Positions 33,477-62,952 of a DNA stretch of 64,000 bases are shown in pieces. The notes under the pieces are model-generated. The model was given only the letters and a program-made list of their open reading frames with translations. It was not told the origin of the DNA and made no database searches. The stretch lies in the sequence record MN850645.1; one strand, given 5' to 3'. Origin of the DNA: Escherichia phage outra. Numbering within the stretch: position 1 is the stretch's first letter; every line of letters begins with the position of its first letter. The translations under genes were made by a program, and so were the position numbers.

Positions 33477-34604
33477 ATGAAATACACGATTTATGGTGAT
33501 ATTGTAAGTGTAAATAAAGATATGGGCGTGGAATCTAACTATCTTCCACCTGGATTCTATACTGTTAGTCGTGATCCCCTTGGCAATTATTTTTTAAGCC
33601 GTGGTAATCTGACAGGTGTACCTGATGTTCTGTATGGTGAAACAGAAAAACGAGCAAATCACGTTATCCGTACATTCCATCGCCGGAGTGCACAAGGTAA
33701 AAATACAGGATTGCTTCTGACAGGAACTAAGGGTAGTGGTAAAACTATGTTAGCCAAACTCATTAGTCGTGACCTTGTAGAAGAAGGTATTCCAACTATT
33801 ATGGTTACTCAAGCCTACAGCGATGCTAATTTCATTGAACTTATTAGCAAGATCACCGACAAAGCAGTGATTATTTTTGACGAGTTTGATAAAGTGTATG
33901 AGAAGAAACAAGATCAAGAAGCACTTCTCACTTTGTTAGATGGTACTGGCAGTGGTAATAAACTGTTTATTCTAACTAAAAACAGTGGCTTTATCTCTGA
34001 ATTCTTTCTAAATCGTCCTAGTCGTGTGTTTTATAATTTTAATTATGATAAAATCTCACTAGAAACTATGATTGACTATTTAGATAAAAACCTGGATAAC
34101 AAAGCACACTTTGATAATTTCCAAAGGCTTTGGGATGTAAGTTTAGAGTTGTCCTTTGATGTGATCCAAGGTATAGTAGAAGAACTTAATTTCTACCCTG
34201 ATTTATCCTTTAAAGAATGCATCTCTATGATGGGCGTTTCTTTGGGTGGTGGTAATAAGTGGGATATCAGCAGCGTTGTTATTAATGGGAAACTTCAGAA
34301 AGTTAGCTGGGTATCTAGTTGGCATAACTTCACACCTGCAATCTTTTTAGGTGGCTCGTGCACACTAGACGTGTACTTGTCATCTCCAAGTGATGCAGAC
34401 TCTAAAGAAGCCCTTGCTAATAGCTCTTACGTGGTTTTTGATGATGAAGGAGATGCTCGAATTCCATTGAATGCGACAAAAATGAAAGCAGATCTTATTA
34501 CAGGCGGTAAAATCGTTGTGTTTAGTGATGATCCAGAAGATTCTTTCCGTATTGTTCTGGAACCAACTATCACCAATGGTGCAACTTTGGCAAGCGTGTT
34601 TTAA
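33477..34604 (+). CDS. AAA+ family ATPase, paralog B
   Basis: 375 aa; Walker A GTKGSGKT, Walker B IIFDEFDKV; LLTLLDG.G...LF.LTKN.G..SEF..NRPSR.FY.F.Y shared with 17749..18909. Confidence 0.75.
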   Translation: MKYTIYGDIVSVNKDMGVESNYLPPGFYTVSRDPLGNYFLSRGNLTGVPDVLYGETEKRANHVIRTFHRRSAQGKNTGLLLTGTKGSGKTMLAKLISRDLVEEGIPTIMVTQAYSDANFIELISKITDKAVIIFDEFDKVYEKKQDQEALLTLLDGTGSGNKLFILTKNSGFISEFFLNRPSRVFYNFNYDKISLETMIDYLDKNLDNKAHFDNFQRLWDVSLELSFDVIQGIVEELNFYPDLSFKECISMMGVSLGGGNKWDISSVVINGKLQKVSWVSSWHNFTPAIFLGGSCTLDVYLSSPSDADSKEALANSSYVVFDDEGDARIPLNATKMKADLITGGKIVVFSDDPEDSFRIVLEPTITNGATLASVF

Positions 34605-34618
34605 GTAAGCCAGCAAAT

Positions 34619-34650
34619 AAAAACCCGCTCCGGCGGGTTTTCTTGTATTG
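34619..34650 (+). terminator. Rho-independent terminator
   Basis: aaacccgctccggcgggttt hairpin followed by a T-tract. Confidence 0.7.
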
Positions 34651-34678
34651 ATGCCAGATTTAATAAGAGGAGTAATAG

Positions 34679-35851
34679 ATGACAGCACCAAAATCATGGG
34701 AACAATATAAAGAAGAATTAACACCCCTTGCTAAAAATCGCAATATTCAAATCCTGGGTTATGTTGGTGAATGGAAAGGGAACAAGACTAAACTTAAGCT
34801 ATCTTGCCCTAAACATGGAGAGTGGAACACCACGAACATTAATGATTTTAAGAAGGGACGTGGTTGTCCTATCTGTTCTGGTAAGAAGCCGTTAACATGG
34901 GAAACAGAATTGCCGATCTTGGAAGAGATAGCACAGAAGAGGGGGTATCAGGTGTTAGGGTACGTGGGAGAATGGAAAGGGAATAAAACAAAACTTGATT
35001 TGTTGTGTCATTGTGGTAATAAATGGGATACTACAAGTATTAACAATTTTAAACGTGGTAGCGGTTGTCCACAATGTAAGAGGGAGAGACAAACAATGTC
35101 CGACGATCAACATATTGCAGATTTCTTTTCTACAGGGGAATTTAAGGAAGGCACTATCTTCACCAATACAGGGAAACGTAACAAGCGTGATGCAGTATGG
35201 ATGGTTGAGTGTCCTGTTTGCTCCCATGATGAATATGTTCAAGCAGGTGTTTGTGATGGTAAATTTTACTCTGCAGGACATAACCTTAAACAAGGGTATA
35301 TTCCGTGTCGTTGTGGGAACTATCAGTATACAGAAGACCAGATCACCTATAGGGTAAAAAAGGAAGTAGAAGGGAAAGGGTATGTCTGGGTAGATTGGAT
35401 TACCAAACCCTCTTCTATAGGTAAGTTTAAATATCTTTGTCTTGTGCATGGTGAGCAGATAGGGAGTGCTCGTAATTTATTAAGCCTCGGTCAAGGTTGT
35501 CCACAGTGTGCTGGTCATAATCAACAGCAATTATATATTAATATTGTTAAAGATAATGATATTATAGTTGCTCTTAAGTTTGGTATATCTAAAGATAGCG
35601 ATAGACGATTAAACGGTCAAAATAGCCGTAATCTGTTTTTTATGGGGCGTATTTGTTTATATGATTTTAGCACAGTGAAACAATGTAGGGCTGCTGAAAG
35701 AGCTATAAAGAAAAAATTAAAAACTGGTATTTTAACGGCAAGAGAGTTGAAAGATGGTTATACAGAAACAGTAAGTGTTTCTGATTTGGAAAATCTTCAA
35801 AAAATTATTACACAATATGGTGGCAAATTAGTATACAGTAAGGAGATGTAA
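34679..35851 (+). CDS. homing-endonuclease-like protein (tandem Zn-ribbon repeats plus C-terminal T5orf172/GIY-YIG-like domain)
   Basis: Two repeats LGYVGEWKGNKTKL...C..G..W.TT.IN.FK.G.GCP.C and a third CPQCAG unit; C-terminal YINIVKDNDIIVALKFGISKDSDRR; GAGGAG RBS. Confidence 0.5.
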   Translation: MTAPKSWEQYKEELTPLAKNRNIQILGYVGEWKGNKTKLKLSCPKHGEWNTTNINDFKKGRGCPICSGKKPLTWETELPILEEIAQKRGYQVLGYVGEWKGNKTKLDLLCHCGNKWDTTSINNFKRGSGCPQCKRERQTMSDDQHIADFFSTGEFKEGTIFTNTGKRNKRDAVWMVECPVCSHDEYVQAGVCDGKFYSAGHNLKQGYIPCRCGNYQYTEDQITYRVKKEVEGKGYVWVDWITKPSSIGKFKYLCLVHGEQIGSARNLLSLGQGCPQCAGHNQQQLYINIVKDNDIIVALKFGISKDSDRRLNGQNSRNLFFMGRICLYDFSTVKQCRAAERAIKKKLKTGILTARELKDGYTETVSVSDLENLQKIITQYGGKLVYSKEM

Positions 35852-36403
35852 ATGCGGATTACTGATAAGTATGTGTTCTTCTTCTCGGCAAAAGATGAAT
35901 TTAGCAACTGGTATCTATCATCTTTTATTGAACCTTTAGCTCCCAAGTATAATAATTCTATTACAAGTTCTGTTGAATTTACTTGTGTGGAACAATATAT
36001 GATGTGGAGAAAAGCATGTTTGTTTTATGATTACAACATTGCATCTTCTATTTTAACCGGAGATCTAAGATATACAGGAGAAAAAGAACAGGCATATTAT
36101 AAGCGACTAGGTAGATTAGTTAAAGATTACGATGAAGCTACTTGGACTTCTTTACGGGAGAAGATTGTCAAGCGTGGTTTGTATCTTAAATACACACAAA
36201 ATGAAGATCTCAAAAATAAACTTATCGCTTACGCAGATAAGGAGTTCGTAGAGGCAAGCCCTTATGATTCTATTTATGGTATCAAAATGGGAATGTGGGA
36301 TCGTGATGTGGAAAATAAGGACTGTTGGAAAGGACAAAATCTTTTAGGAAAATGGCATACAGACCTTGCTGTTTATCTAAAAGCACAATCTGATATTTCC
36401 TGA
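35852..36403 (+). CDS. NADAR (YbiA-like, DUF1768) family protein
   Basis: 183 aa; FFFSAKDEFSNWYLS...FTCVEQYMMWRKA and GQNLLGKWHTDLAVYL fit NADAR conserved blocks; AAGGAG RBS. Confidence 0.55.
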   Translation: MRITDKYVFFFSAKDEFSNWYLSSFIEPLAPKYNNSITSSVEFTCVEQYMMWRKACLFYDYNIASSILTGDLRYTGEKEQAYYKRLGRLVKDYDEATWTSLREKIVKRGLYLKYTQNEDLKNKLIAYADKEFVEASPYDSIYGIKMGMWDRDVENKDCWKGQNLLGKWHTDLAVYLKAQSDIS

Positions 36404-36599: not shown

Positions 36600-36840
36600 T
36601 CATTTTTATAAAAAGGACAAAATTATTTAAAGTTTTTACAGATTTTTGGGTACAAATTTTGAAAATGAAAAGTTCAAGTTTGGTCAAAATTATTTAAAGT
36701 TTTTGTACGTATTTCTATCCAGATTTTGAAAATGAAAACTTCAATTTTTTAAAAATTCCCCAGTTTATTTAAAGTTTTTTTGCCTTTTTCCGTAGAAAAA
36801 TCAAAAATGAAAAGTTCAATTTCGTGTTTTTATGGGTGTG
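36600..36840. repeat. tandem direct repeats (about 60-70 bp period, 3-4 copies) in a non-coding region
   Basis: Recurring TTTTGAAAATGAAAAGTTCAA and ATTATTTAAAGTTTTT blocks near 36623, 36658-36698, 36724-36777, 36800-36830. Confidence 0.6.
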
Positions 36841-36841
36841 C

Positions 36842-36955
36842 GTATGATAATCATTTTCATTTGTAAATGAGAATCATTATCATTTAAGTATGTAAGTGAT
36901 AATCATTCTCAGTAAGAGAATGAGAATCATTAGCAAATGAGAATTTTCTCATTTA
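36842..36955. promoter_or_regulatory. cluster of AT-rich dyad operator-like sites (AATGA-n3-TCATT, Fur-box-like)
   Basis: gataatcatt, aatgagaatcattatc, gtgataatcattctc, gaatgagaatcattagc and the perfect palindrome aaatgagaattttctcattt. Confidence 0.45.
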
Positions 36956-37595
36956 GAGAATAACGCGCAGGGGCGGTGTTTGTCTCGCGCTCCCGTGTCC
37001 CCTCGCCATACAATAAGAATAGCATAACCAACAACAAAAGCAAGCGATTATTTTTATCTTTACATTTCTTTACAAATTTATTTTAGACGAGCTACCGGCG
37101 ATCAACCTTCCAACCAGTAGTGCCCTGGTATGTTAGCCCCGCCTTTACGCCGTGGGGGTGGCGCTTCCTCTTCTGTATGTAAAACAGTATAAGCCCGATC
37201 CCTGGGCTTGTCAAGATTATTTTTTGTTTTCTTGCCAGGATAGGACACCTAGCCAAAAATACATGTCGCCCCGCGCCCCTGGCGGGATCTTGCTTTCCCC
37301 GCCGCCACTGCAAGCCCATAGATAACCATTTGCGAACGTATCAAAATGATCTATTTCTTCCACCTTATGATCGCCCAGGTTGAGAACGGTTTCAACCTTT
37401 AAGCCCGTTGCGCTTGCTACCTGGTGCACCGTGCCGCCTTGCCAGCCTAATGAGTGCATGAGGTGTAAAGTAGTATTTGTCATGGTATCGCCCTTTCTTT
37501 GATGTGCGCCCTGGTTGGCGCGGTAGAAAGATAATAGCCCCTTTCCTTTATAGATAGCAAGCAAAAAAGAAATGAAAAAAGATTAAAAAAGGGGT

Positions 37596-37624
37596 TGACG
37601 TTCCTCACCTGGTAGCGTATTATT
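37596..37624 (+). promoter_or_regulatory. sigma70-like promoter (TTGACG-17-TATTAT)
   Basis: Read directly; located in a locally GC-richer island. Confidence 0.45.
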
Positions 37625-37854
37625 CATCTTGTCGAGGGGGGCGAGGCACAACGACAATAAACAAAAGGAGGGCGCAATGCAGGACGGGCAAAGGTGAGGA
37701 TCTCCACAATCCACCGTCACAATAACATTACTTATAAAAGGTTGATAACGATGATCAAGAAAGAAAACAGCTTGACGGTTGGAACGATTAACGCTATCAT
37801 TCTAGCCGTTCCATTTTGGATTGTAGTAGCGGTTATTATCTTTTAAAAATATTC

Positions 37855-47977: not shown

Positions 47978-48052
47978 AAATGATAATCATTCTTATTTAT
48001 AGCTGATTATTTATGCAATAAACTGCATAATGCAATAATGATAATCATTCTT
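47978..48052. promoter_or_regulatory. two Fur-box-like dyads (AATGATAATCATTCTT), 55 bp apart
   Basis: Read directly. Confidence 0.4.
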
Positions 48053-48906
48053 AACTTATGACCATCTAACCTATAAAATAATAAGCTATCTAACTAAATT
48101 AAAACTAATTATCTCACCTTTATTTATAACTTACTGTTACTATCTCATTGATAACCTTATATTAAACAACAATAACTAATATAAATCATTACTAAGCTAA
48201 ATATAATCTATCTAACCTTTAAAACTATAACTATAATCTATCGAATTGTTGCACAAAGTAACTATTAAATTGTTAGTAACATTGCTAAATAATTAATATC
48301 CTATCTATTTATGATCTAATCTTTACCTTCCTATTTATTACCTAAATAACCATTTCATATAGTAATTATTTCATACAATAACTATAACAAGAAACATAAT
48401 TCGCAAGCGTATCATTAGCAGCCTATGCCGGACACATAGGCGGCTAATAATAACGCAACTACACACCCCACATAATAACCATCACCGATAGTTATTATTT
48501 GTGCTTATGTAGCTTGCAACAATTGCAAGCGCAACAATATACTAAGGTATATTGTATCCCTTACATTGTTGCGGTGCGTTATTATTAGCTAATGTTTAGA
48601 ACATTGGCTATAATATAAGCTGCATATAATAAGCTATTCAATAATAAACATCGTGAATAATGACATTGATGATCATAATGCGCCACCCTCCAGGGGGCGC
48701 TATGTGAACACAAAGAAATCTTTCTTATCAAGAAAATATTATCACTATTGCGCAAAATTATTTACATCTGAATAGATGATTTTTCATACTATTATTGTTA
48801 TTTGTTGAGCATAGTTATAGCCTATTTGTTGAGCCTACTTTCTTAAAAGCGCAATAAATCAGAATTATCTTGATTTTTAGTGCGTTTTATAGTATAGAAA
48901 ATATGC

Positions 48907-48923
48907 AAATGATAATCATTATC
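48907..48923. promoter_or_regulatory. near-perfect Fur-box-like site (AAATGATAATCATTATC) just downstream of a TTGATT-N17-TATAGA promoter-like element
   Basis: 15-nt identity with positions 5-19 of the E. coli Fur consensus GATAATGATAATCATTATC. Confidence 0.45.
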
Positions 48924-61360: not shown

Positions 61361-61390
61361 AAACCCGCTTCGGCGGGTTTTCTTGTATGT
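61361..61390 (+). terminator. Rho-independent terminator (near-identical copy of the one at 34619)
   Basis: aaacccgcttcggcgggttttcttgtat. Confidence 0.7.
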
Positions 61391-62139: not shown

Positions 62140-62952
62140 TTACTTAGTCAAATGATCTTCTATCATTTTTATGAAAGCAGGATTGCTAAAAGCCTCTGCT
62201 GCCTTTTCTCTATAAACAAAGACTCCTCTATCTTCGTAAAGAAGAGTTTCTTCGTAATTAATTCCTGGGTTAACAACAATCATTTTTGTACCCATATTAA
62301 GTGCAGGAAATAATTCCCAATTAAAATTGATAACTTGGTTTGAACATCCTACTACAACAACCAAATCTTGCATGGTCAGAGTATCAAACAAGTAAGCCAT
62401 ATCTGCATACAAAGGTGCAGCCTCGCCAAAAAATACAACATTAGGCTTCACCCAGTTATAATCATCTATGTTTATACTATTGTAACCAATGTCTACCAGT
62501 GTTTTGTAATCTCCAGGATGCATACGGTAAACTACTTCAGGAAGATACCCGTGCACGTGAATAACAGAATCCCTGTCCACACCTGCTCGCTCTAGTAGAT
62601 CATCAACGTTTGTTGTCAAGTTTACTACTTGGTTAGGATATTCCTTAAACCACTTTGCTATTTGAATATGTGCAGCATTAGGTTGTACATCTTTAAGCTC
62701 AACACGTCTTTTGTTATAAAATTCGTGTGTTTTGGCATACAAATCCATACCGTTCTCGTCTACACCACCGACCACTGGAAGATCTGGAGATGTTCTAACA
62801 CGATAACCTGCTTGGAAAGCTCCAATATCGCAGACCTCTTCTAAATCATATTCTTCCCATAAGGCACGACCACTATCTGTGTCTGTTCGGAATGTTCGAA
62901 TCCCACTGTCTGCACTTAAACCTGCGCCACTAACAAAAATTACTCTTCGCAT
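62140..62952 (-). CDS. Sir2-family (sirtuin-like) NAD-dependent protein
   Basis: 270 aa; VIFVSGAGLSADSGIRTFR (GAG..SG.P.FR), NLTTNVDDLLERAG, IHVHG, KPNVVFFGE, LVVVVGCS; terminator hairpin downstream at about 62112-62132. Confidence 0.75.
   Translation of the reverse strand: MRRVIFVSGAGLSADSGIRTFRTDTDSGRALWEEYDLEEVCDIGAFQAGYRVRTSPDLPVVGGVDENGMDLYAKTHEFYNKRRVELKDVQPNAAHIQIAKWFKEYPNQVVNLTTNVDDLLERAGVDRDSVIHVHGYLPEVVYRMHPGDYKTLVDIGYNSINIDDYNWVKPNVVFFGEAAPLYADMAYLFDTLTMQDLVVVVGCSNQVINFNWELFPALNMGTKMIVVNPGINYEETLLYEDRGVFVYREKAAEAFSNPAFIKMIEDHLTK

What the first reader, a model, noticed from the sequence alone, without database searches (positions are those of the whole stretch)
34619..35851. Homing-endonuclease-like ORF inserted after a terminator that is duplicated 26.7 kb away
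The ORF has tandem internally repeated zinc-ribbon units and a C-terminal T5orf172/GIY-YIG-like block, the architecture of free-standing phage homing endonucleases. It begins right after the terminator AAACCCGCTCCGGCGGGTTTTCTTGTAT, and an almost identical terminator occurs at 61361-61390, suggesting terminator cassettes move with, or are targets of, mobile modules.
Basis: partly seen in the sequence, partly recalled or inferred. Interest (0 to 1): 0.5.

Follow-up and report, generated by a model that had tools for sequence, protein, structure and literature searches.

The report
Zinc-finger GIY-YIG homing-type nuclease gene
The ORF is a putative selfish "homing" nuclease of an already described phage family, with four zinc-finger DNA-binding modules and a GIY-YIG-type cutting domain; it sits in a swap-prone slot of a phi92-like coliphage, and the duplicated terminator is not a mobile cassette.

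Summary
ORF 34679-35851 (390 aa) follows a strong hairpin terminator (34620-34648), and the same 28-mer with one mismatch recurs at 61361-61388.

The window is a Justusliebigvirus (phi92-like) genome, and the gene is the Phi92_gp222 homologue. None of the 55 genus records has an empty site. A Klebsiella relative does: ATPase, terminator, then the next gene. Another Klebsiella relative carries a methyltransferase in the slot.

The flanking ATPase protein is at least 99% identical in 54 of the 55 records matching at 95% or more. The nuclease varies from 67 to 99% and occurs with 3, 4 or 5 finger units. It is mosaic, including a 93-100% identical tract shared across genera.

The second terminator copy lies in a fully collinear region with no nuclease gene, so the mobile-terminator idea fails there. 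At the nuclease site, terminator type does co-vary with the nuclease allele.

Verdict: a new, uncharacterised member of a known kind. Interest is modest.

The parts
34620..34648 (+). Intrinsic terminator hairpin at the end of the ATPase gene. Stem is AAAACCCGC/GCGGGTTTT, loop is TCCG, and the tail is a short interrupted U-tract (UUUUCUUGUAU).
   Evidence: -16.9 kcal/mol. It is annotated as a terminator on both strands in phage Paula. A terminator of some type is present at this position in every relative examined, including those without the nuclease.
34665..34672 (+). Ribosome-binding site AAGAGGAG, ending 6 nt before the ATG. Only 30 nt separate the terminator from the start codon.
   Evidence: Sequence. 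phi92 annotates an AGGAG RBS at the same place. The promoter scan lists no sigma-70-like site lying between the terminator and the ORF start; the nearest, a weak 9-of-12 match, begins at the start codon itself.
34679..35851 (+). Nuclease ORF, 390 aa, homologue of Phi92_gp222: four CapR zinc-finger units followed by a T5orf172/GIY-YIG domain.
   Evidence: (PHROG 681 'endonuclease', E 9e-87); AF2 full-length model with pLDDT 89.7.
34691..34882 (+). CapR-type zinc-finger unit 1 (about aa 5-68; ligands C43, H46, C63, C66).
   Evidence: This unit is missing in 3-unit alleles such as EmilieFrey and VEcB.
34895..35086 (+). CapR-type zinc-finger unit 2 (about aa 73-136; ligands C110, C112, C130, C133). 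It gives the best Pfam CapR match, residues 81-134.
35096..35320 (+). Divergent zinc-finger unit 3 (about aa 140-214; ligands C178, C181, C210, C212).
   Evidence: Together with unit 4 it is the most mosaic part of the gene: 53-58% nt identity to phi92.
35330..35518 (+). Zinc-finger unit 4 (about aa 218-280; ligands C254, H257, C274, C277).
   Evidence: C254, C274 and C277 are invariant in 62 homologues.
35525..35848 (+). T5orf172-like GIY-YIG nuclease domain (aa 283-390). Invariant residues are Y286, K300, G302, R310, Q314, E340, D359, G360, E363 and T364.
35840..35854 (+). Junction with the downstream gene. The RBS AAGGAG for the NADAR gene lies inside the last codons of the nuclease ORF, and the TAA stop (35849-35851) abuts the NADAR ATG (35852).
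   Evidence: phi92 annotates the RBS of gene 223 inside gene 222.
33477..34604 (+). Upstream flank: AAA+ ATPase gene (context, not part of the element).
   Evidence: The protein is at least 99% identical in 54 of the 55 records that match at 95% or more. dN = 0 against 4 relatives.
35852..36403 (+). Downstream flank: NADAR (YbiA-like) gene (context).
   Evidence: (E 2.3e-36), (dN/dS 0.02-0.16).
61361..61388 (+). Second copy of the 28-nt terminator (TTCG loop), between two small ORFs of unknown function. It is not associated with any nuclease gene.
   Evidence: (collinear in 55 of 55 relatives); (-18.0 kcal/mol).

Best explanation
The ORF is a free-standing homing-endonuclease-type gene of the T5orf172 branch of the GIY-YIG superfamily.

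Proposed mechanism:
- Four tandem CapR-type zinc-finger modules, arranged as beads on a string, read a long DNA site.
- They position the C-terminal GIY-YIG domain to cut DNA. This step is inferred.
- Repair by recombination then copies the gene, and its immediate surroundings, into related phages during co-infection. This step is also inferred.

Shown here:
- The gene occupies the slot between the ATPase gene's terminator and the ribosome-binding site of the next gene.
- That slot is empty in one Klebsiella-infecting relative. It holds a methyltransferase in another, and it holds different nuclease alleles in the E. coli-infecting genera.
- The gene is fixed in Justusliebigvirus.
- It is intact in every one of the 55 records but one, which has a 1-nt frameshift.
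- It is under purifying selection.
- Its DNA-binding region diversifies by gain and loss of finger units (3, 4 or 5).
- It also diversifies by mosaic exchange, including exchange with Phapecoctavirus.

Inferred expression: there is no room for a promoter, so the gene is probably expressed at a low level by read-through of the upstream terminator. Its 3' end supplies the ribosome-binding site of the downstream NADAR gene.
For: Domains and fold:
- CapR x4 at E 2.9e-43, T5orf172 borderline. PHROG 681 'endonuclease' at E 9e-87.
- Of 62 homologues, 30 hit T5orf172 and 9 hit MUG113.
- BFVD hits are labelled CapR, GIY-YIG, homing endonuclease and T5 Orf172.
- Y286, R310 and E340 are invariant in 62 sequences.

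Presence or absence:
- 0 of about 55 Justusliebigvirus records have the two flanks adjacent.
- Klebsiella phage phi1_175008 lacks the gene. There the ATPase terminator is followed directly by the homologue (E 8e-17) of the gene that follows the nuclease in phAPEC8.
- Klebsiella phage FKP3 has a methyltransferase in the slot. It carries a related nuclease (34% identity, E 3e-23) about 2 kb away on the other strand.

Allele replacement:
- phAPEC8 against nieznany: homology ends 3 nt after the ATPase stop and resumes 30 nt before the nuclease stop.
- phAPEC8 against ESCO5: homology resumes in mid-gene.

Hypervariability in constant flanks:
- The ATPase protein is at least 99% identical in 54 of the 55 records matching at 95% or more.
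- The nuclease splits as: at least 99% in 6 records, 95-99% in 10, 80-90% in 22, 60-80% in 17.
- dS in units 3-4 is 0.79 to saturated, against 0.06-0.14 in the flanks. dN/dS is 0.18-0.57.

Cross-genus exchange:
- A 93-100% identical tract covers the terminator, the RBS and the first ~100 nt of the gene between phi92 and phAPEC8. The background there is 50-75%.
- The window's units 3-4 are closer to phAPEC8 (pN 0.16) than to phi92 (pN 0.37).

Literature:
- CapR zinc-finger cysteines are required for DNA binding (PMC8096241).
- T5orf172 genes with repeated CapR/DUF723 fingers, and deletions caused by recombination between repeats, are described as putative homing endonucleases (PMC10448857).
- T4 free-standing endonucleases have terminator-limited expression (PMC2988022).
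Against: - No cleavage, target site or homing has been shown for this protein, or for any CapR/T5orf172 gene. The authors of PMC10448857 say so themselves.
- There is no empty site anywhere in its own genus. Homing in the strict sense has no naive target among the sequenced close relatives.
- A selfish gene that is fixed is expected to decay. This one is intact in every genus record but one and is under purifying selection, which also fits a useful, domesticated role.
- The Pfam T5orf172 score is just below the curated cut-off.
- Sequence searches against solved structures find no GIY-YIG protein.
- The profile alignment to I-TevI is not significant. The assignment of catalytic residues therefore rests on fold and conservation alone.
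Confidence: 0.72

Rival explanations
1. Domesticated nuclease. The gene descends from a homing endonuclease but is now kept because it benefits the phage. It might cut co-infecting rival phages that carry other alleles (marker exclusion), or satellites and other parasites as ICP1 Odn does, or host DNA. Changes in finger number and exchange of finger modules would retarget it in an arms race.
For: - The gene is fixed at one locus in all 55 genus records, with one frameshifted copy (ECGD1).
- dN/dS is 0.18-0.57 in every segment and the catalytic candidates are invariant.
- Deep allelic lineages are shared across genera.
- The DNA-binding part varies while the nuclease part is conserved.
- Precedent: Odn and the Odn-like T5orf172 genes reported in the Justusliebigvirus phages Inny and Muut (PMC10448857).
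Against: - The protein has no RepA_N or other satellite-derived DNA-binding domain.
- There is no nucleotide similarity to any of 5,426 complete E. coli genomes, unlike the capR/gp174 and Odn/RepA cases.
- Fixation with purifying selection is also expected if alleles keep homing into each other's sites.
Confidence: 0.2
2. DNA-binding regulator with a dead nuclease domain. Like the satellite protein CapR, the zinc fingers would bind a promoter or operator and repress transcription, perhaps of the protein's own operon, and the C-terminal domain would be a non-catalytic remnant.
For: - CapR itself is a repressor built from this zinc-finger domain (PMC8096241).
- I-TevI doubles as an autorepressor (PMC2988022).
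- The Pfam T5orf172 hit is sub-threshold.
Against: - The C-terminal domain is the best-conserved part of the protein. Ten residues are invariant over 62 sequences down to 25% identity, including the Tyr, Arg and Glu positions expected of GIY-YIG enzymes.
- It folds confidently as GIY-YIG.
- CapR-type repressors lack this domain altogether.
Confidence: 0.05
3. One reading: the 28-nt terminator is itself a mobile cassette or the recognition target of the nuclease, which would explain its duplication 26.7 kb away.
For: - The 28-mer repeat is not a chance match: none was found in 100 shuffles.
- In several relatives the two copies are identical over 28 of 28 nt.
- At the nuclease site, terminator type co-varies with the nuclease 5' allele and lies inside the cross-genus high-identity tract.
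Against: - The second site is collinear and 97-99% identical in 55 of 55 relatives, with no nuclease or indel.
- There is no paralogous nuclease domain anywhere in the window.
- The 28-mer occurs at most twice per genome, only in Justusliebigvirus among 50,697 phage records, and only in Justusliebigvirus-like contigs of IMG/VR.
- Relatives without the nuclease also have a terminator after the ATPase gene.
- Other terminator stem types recur in the window without any nuclease: GGGCGC three times and GCCCC twice.
- A nuclease that cut a site present in its own genome would be self-destructive.
Confidence: 0.04

Closest known systems
T5orf172 putative homing endonucleases with CapR/DUF723 zinc-finger arrays (Vibrio phage ICP1 gp165, gp174, gp121, gp53, gp130 and relatives; Netter et al. 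2021, PMC8096241; Barth, Dunham and Seed 2023, PMC10448857)
   Same: - Same two-part architecture: N-terminal repeated CapR-type zinc fingers and a C-terminal T5orf172 domain.
- Direct sequence similarity: ICP1 ORF165 shares 27.8% identity over 82% of the query, E about 1e-23.
- Free-standing intergenic position.
- In-frame loss or gain of a finger unit by recombination between repeats, as described for ICP1 gp174 and seen here as 3-, 4- and 5-unit alleles.
   Different: - A different phage lineage (Stephanstirmvirinae).
- A single copy per genome at a fixed locus, rather than many variable copies.
- Almost never disrupted, whereas ICP1 copies are often frameshifted or absent.
- Not located next to an obviously essential structural or replication gene. 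The neighbours are an AAA ATPase and a NADAR gene.
T4 Seg-type free-standing GIY-YIG homing endonucleases (SegA-G; 'intronless homing', localized marker exclusion)
   Same: - GIY-YIG catalytic fold.
- An intergenic, free-standing gene.
- Expression limited by nearby terminators or a lack of own promoter.
- Replacement of one endonuclease gene by another at the same locus in related phages (PMC2988022).
   Different: - The order is reversed: here the nuclease domain is C-terminal and the DNA-binding part is N-terminal.
- The DNA-binding part is an array of zinc fingers, not the helix-turn-helix and minor-groove elements of I-TevI or Seg proteins.
- There is no significant sequence similarity to I-TevI.
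PLE CapR (satellite-encoded repressor of the ICP1 capsid operon)
   Same: The same zinc-finger DNA-binding domain (Pfam PF21817), with paired Cys motifs that are required for DNA binding.
   Different: CapR has one finger domain and no nuclease domain, and it acts as a transcriptional repressor. The window protein has four fingers plus a conserved GIY-YIG domain.
ICP1 Odn and the Odn-like T5orf172 proteins of coliphages Inny, Muut and Mt1B1_P17
   Same: A T5orf172 nuclease domain fused to an exchangeable DNA-binding module. Odn is the one case in which T5orf172 nuclease activity has been shown experimentally. Inny and Muut belong to the same genus as this window.
   Different: Odn-type proteins use RepA_N domains captured from satellites. 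This protein has none and has no nucleotide match in E. coli chromosomes. It is a different gene from the Odn-like one.

Membership tests
CapR/T5orf172 putative homing endonucleases | One or more CapR-type (or DUF723/DUF4379) zinc-finger DNA-binding domains | tested here: met
   PF21817 at E 2.9e-43 in 4 stretches; DUF4379 at E 2.2e-6; DUF723 at E 1.4e-5. All 62 homologues hit CapR.
CapR/T5orf172 putative homing endonucleases | Four zinc ligands (CxxC/H ... CxxC/CxC) in each finger unit | tested here: met
   Ligand quartets are present in all four units (translation). C130, C133, C254, C274 and C277 are invariant. C110, C178, C181, C210, C212 and H257 are at least 90% conserved. Zinc binding itself was not tested.
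CapR/T5orf172 putative homing endonucleases | T5orf172 domain (Pfam PF10544) above the curated threshold | tested here: inconclusive
   19.1 bits against a cut-off of 20, E 0.0019. Of 62 close-to-distant homologues, 30 hit at E <= 0.01 (best 5.6e-5) and 9 hit MUG113.
GIY-YIG nuclease superfamily | GIY-YIG alpha/beta fold (three-stranded sheet flanked by helices) | tested here: met
GIY-YIG nuclease superfamily | Catalytic Tyr (GIY), the second motif (YIG), and conserved Arg and Glu | tested here: inconclusive
   Candidates LY286I, K300-F-G302, R310 and E340 are invariant in 62 sequences and lie on strand 1, strand 2, helix 1 and helix 2. hhalign pairs KFG with I-TevI YVG and R310 with R27, but at probability 0.2%. 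The second Tyr is Phe here.
GIY-YIG nuclease superfamily | Metal-dependent DNA cleavage | not testable with these tools
   Needs purified protein and a cleavage assay.
Homing endonuclease gene (functional definition) | Presence/absence polymorphism at an otherwise conserved locus | tested here: met
   The gene is absent in Klebsiella phage phi1_175008, with conserved neighbours on both sides. The slot holds a methyltransferase in FKP3. Caveat: there is no empty site within Justusliebigvirus.
Homing endonuclease gene (functional definition) | Gene-conversion footprints: sharp exchange boundaries and co-converted flanks | tested here: inconclusive
   Allele replacement is bounded at the ATPase stop codon and the nuclease stop codon. 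A cross-genus tract of 93-100% identity is present. These are compatible with homing but also with ordinary homologous recombination.
Homing endonuclease gene (functional definition) | Cleaves the cognate site lacking the gene and is over-inherited in mixed infection | not testable with these tools
   Requires cleavage mapping and phage crosses.
CapR-type satellite repressors | Zinc-finger domain only, with no nuclease domain | tested here: not met
   A conserved C-terminal GIY-YIG domain is present.
Odn-type anti-satellite nucleases | RepA_N DNA-binding domain homologous to a satellite replication initiator | tested here: not met
   No RepA_N hit in Pfam. No nucleotide match in 5,426 E. coli genomes.

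The most novel reading that the evidence does not exclude
The locus could be a long-lived, cross-genus allelic series of naturally modular zinc-finger nucleases. Alleles with 3, 4 or 5 exchangeable finger units would recognise different sites. They would be maintained by competition between co-infecting E. coli phages, each allele cutting genomes that carry other alleles, rather than by invasion of empty sites. Finger-unit gain, loss and shuffling would act as a specificity-switching mechanism, which would explain why a 'selfish' gene is fixed, intact and under purifying selection in two genera.
Probability: 0.2. Interest if true: 0.6.

Novelty: new member of a known kind. Interest (0 to 1): 0.3.

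Why it matters
The gene type is ordinary. Public annotation already calls it 'endonuclease' or 'CapR homology domain-containing protein', and the family architecture and its repeat dynamics were described in 2021-2023.

Its modest value lies elsewhere:
- Stephanstirmvirinae phages are used in therapy collections and in the BASEL set.
- This locus offers a tidy natural experiment for a family in which neither homing nor target sites have ever been shown. There is one fixed site, constant flanks, about 130 genomes and at least three finger-number classes.
- Empty and alternative-cargo sites exist in Klebsiella relatives.
- The locus could be used to test how tandem zinc-finger arrays set the specificity of GIY-YIG nucleases.
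- It could also test whether fixed homing-type genes persist through competition between alleles.

Tried and rejected
- A Foldseek search of the full-length model against PDB gave only meaningless hits, all with E > 0.001 and TM about 0.1. The protein is a flexible string of small domains (pTM 0.47), so I re-modelled the C-terminal domain alone.
- Sequence and profile searches against PDB chains found no nuclease, only a weak zinc-ribbon match to ribosomal protein bL31.
I use it only as a hint.
- NCBIfam gave nothing relevant.
- A profile of the nuclease domain found no second copy among 423 window ORFs.
- An IMG/VR scan for the 28-mer returned only Justusliebigvirus-like contigs.
- A search of the gene against complete E. 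coli genomes found nothing, so there is no hint of exchange with satellites or prophages.
- Rfam and tRNA scans of the window were empty.
- GC content gives no clear foreign-DNA signal for the ORF: 0.31-0.43 against 0.30-0.42 for its neighbours.
- I rejected positive selection as the cause of the variability. dN/dS is below 1 in all segments, and dS is far higher than in the flanks, which points to imported divergent alleles.
Full report
**What is there.** The window is a Justusliebigvirus (phi92-like, subfamily Stephanstirmvirinae) genome segment. The 3.6 kb around the finding is 99.9% identical to Escherichia phage ESCO8 and 93-99% identical to about 54 other records. The ORF runs 34679-35851 on the + strand and encodes 390 aa; it is the homologue of Phi92_gp222. 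Upstream lies an AAA+ ATPase gene (33477-34604). Downstream lies a NADAR/YbiA-like gene (35852-36403), whose ATG abuts the ORF's TAA stop.

- The quoted terminator matches exactly at 34621-34648 and with one mismatch at 61361-61388. None was found in 100 shuffles.
- Both are stable hairpins.
- Pfam finds four CapR-homology zinc-finger units, E 2.9e-43, and a T5orf172 hit just under threshold (19.1 against 20 bits).
- PHROGs places the protein in family 681, 'endonuclease', E 9e-87.

**Is it a nuclease?**
- Sequence searches against solved structures find nothing relevant.
- An AF2 model of the whole protein is confident locally (pLDDT 89.7) but is a string of small domains (pTM 0.47). Its fold search was uninformative.
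- The C-terminal 113 residues, modelled alone with 62 homologues, give pLDDT 94.2 and pTM 0.87, with a beta-beta-alpha-beta-alpha core.
- BFVD hits are phage proteins labelled CapR-homology, GIY-YIG, homing endonuclease or T5 Orf172.
- Of 62 homologues, 30 hit Pfam T5orf172 and 9 hit MUG113.
- Ten C-terminal residues are invariant down to 25% identity, including Y286, K300/G302, R310 and E340.
- These sit where the GIY Tyr, the YIG motif, and the Arg and Glu of GIY-YIG enzymes would sit. That mapping is inferred, and the alignment to I-TevI is not significant.

**Is it inserted?**

*Within the genus: no.*
- A query made of the two flanks joined together found no record in which they are adjacent.
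- tblastn finds the gene at the same place in all 55 genus records. Only ECGD1 has a 1-nt frameshift.

*At subfamily level: yes.*
- Phapecoctavirus genomes have the order ATPase, terminator, nuclease, gp012, gp011, NADAR.
- Klebsiella phage phi1_175008 has ATPase, terminator, then directly the gp012 homologue (E 8e-17).
- Klebsiella phage FKP3 has a DNA methyltransferase in the slot. It carries a related CapR/T5orf172 gene about 2 kb away on the opposite strand.

*Allele replacement within Phapecoctavirus.*
- phAPEC8 and nieznany are 96% identical up to 3 nt past the ATPase stop, and again from 30 nt before the nuclease stop. In between they are unalignable at the DNA level.
- phAPEC8 and ESCO5 differ only in the terminator and the 5' half of the gene.

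**How the gene evolves.**
- The ATPase protein is at least 99% identical in 54 of the 55 records that match at 95% or more.
- The nuclease is at least 99% identical in 6 records, 95-99% in 10, 80-90% in 22 and 60-80% in 17.
- The variable part is the zinc-finger region (window 34690-35500). The nuclease domain and both flanks stay at 0.9-1.0 identity.
- Alleles carry 3, 4 or 5 finger units: 14, 35 and 6 records by my count. Units 1 and 2 share DNA repeats that could mediate this.
- dN/dS is 0.18-0.57 in all segments, so the protein is under purifying selection.
- Synonymous divergence in units 3-4 is 0.79 to saturated, against 0.06-0.14 in the flanks. The alleles are therefore old lineages moved by recombination, not fast local evolution.
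- The window's units 3-4 are closer to phAPEC8, in another genus, than to phi92.
- phi92 and phAPEC8 share a tract of 93-100% identity covering the terminator, the RBS and the first ~100 nt of the gene. The background there is 50-75%.

**The terminator question.**
- Every relative has a terminator right after the ATPase gene, including those without the nuclease. The terminator therefore belongs to the ATPase transcription unit.
- Its sequence type varies with the nuclease 5' allele:
  - Justusliebigvirus and phAPEC8 have the CCCGC type.
  - ESCO5, nieznany and Schickermooser have GCCCCGCAAGGGGC.
  - The Klebsiella phages have GCCCCG(A/T)AAGGGGC.
- At this site, then, the terminator is a passenger in the exchanged tract.
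- The second copy at 61361 is a different matter:
  - Its surroundings are collinear and 97-99% identical in all 55 relatives.
  - No nuclease domain is found anywhere else in the window.
  - The 28-mer occurs at most twice per genome and only in this genus, in both GenBank phages and IMG/VR.
  - Other terminator stem types also recur in the window.
- The 28-nt repeat is real, but it is not evidence for a mobile terminator cassette or a target.

**Likely mode of action.**
- Only 30 nt separate the terminator from the start codon. They contain a strong RBS, and no promoter-like site fits between the terminator and the start.
- Expression therefore probably depends on read-through of a hairpin with a short, interrupted U-tract. 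This is inferred.
- Low, terminator-limited expression is known for T4 free-standing endonucleases (PMC2988022).
- The last codons of the ORF carry the RBS of the NADAR gene.
- By analogy with the family, the zinc-finger array binds a long site and the GIY-YIG domain cuts. This too is inferred.
- CapR's cysteines are required for DNA binding (PMC8096241). T5orf172 nuclease activity has been shown for ICP1 Odn (PMC10448857).
- The same paper states that homing has not been verified for any CapR/T5orf172 gene.

**Comparison and novelty.**
- The architecture is published for ICP1 and other phages. So are the repeated fingers, the recombination between repeats and the domain shuffling.
- The main text and the supplementary files held as text do not mention phi92 or phAPEC8. 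They list Inny and Muut only for a different, Odn-like gene.
- RefSeq already labels the gene 'endonuclease', and UniRef calls it a 'CapR homology domain-containing protein'.
- I therefore rate it a new member of a known kind.
- The only mildly unusual points are its fixation, its intactness and the cross-genus allele sharing. These leave room for a domesticated or inter-allele competition role.

Noticed in passing
window 36602-36822: Three tandem direct repeats of about 70 nt (72% identity between copies) lie in a 22-25% GC stretch just downstream of the NADAR gene. They look like iterons and could mark a replication origin or a regulatory array. Several relatives annotate a 'repeat_region' under the 3.6-kb match that includes this stretch.
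   Followed up: partly
window 36845-36950; also 48034-48052 and 48905-48923: There is a cluster of Fur-box-like repeats: TGATAATCATTTTCA occurs three times, and GAGAATGAGAATCATT also occurs. Five matches to the E. coli Fur consensus at up to 3 mismatches were found, against 0.08 expected per window. This suggests iron-responsive control of something in this phage.
   Followed up: partly
window 36747-37642: This ORF-poor stretch, partly GC-rich (up to 52% GC), is 85% identical to phAPEC8, whereas the neighbouring protein genes are only 63-71% identical. A 66-nt core (36935-37000) is 92-94% identical in all Phapecoctavirus records. There is no Rfam family and no tRNA. It may be a conserved non-coding element of unknown function.
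   Followed up: partly
window 42653, 46592, 47746 (GGGCGC stems); 61741, 63512 (GCCCC stems); 336: Intrinsic terminators in this phage fall into a few recurring stem types. Several share a tail like CTTGT(T)AT. The terminator near-duplicate in the finding is therefore one of several such families.
   Followed up: partly
L014 (Klebsiella phage FKP3) 146-1096 and 4297-5019: In this relative the slot after the ATPase gene holds a DNA methyltransferase. A related nuclease gene, sharing the last finger unit and the T5orf172 domain (34% identity), lies about 2 kb upstream on the other strand. The slot behaves as a general cargo hot spot.
   Followed up: partly
KU522583.1 (phage ECGD1) 143943-145111: This is the only genus record in which the nuclease gene appears frameshifted: two tblastn pieces over 1169 nt, annotated as two proteins. 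It may be early decay or a sequencing error.
   Followed up: no
GenBank MG065639, MG065645, MG065656, MG065689: Records labelled 'Campylobacter phage' (A150, A145, C3, A110a) are up to 99% identical to E. coli Justusliebigvirus DNA at this locus (99.1% in the ATPase flank, 94-95% over the full 3.6 kb), so the host label looks doubtful.
   Followed up: no
window 62140-62952 (- strand) and 35852-36403: The window encodes a Sir2-like protein and a NADAR (YbiA-like) protein, both NAD/ADP-ribose-related functions. I did not examine them further.
   Followed up: no
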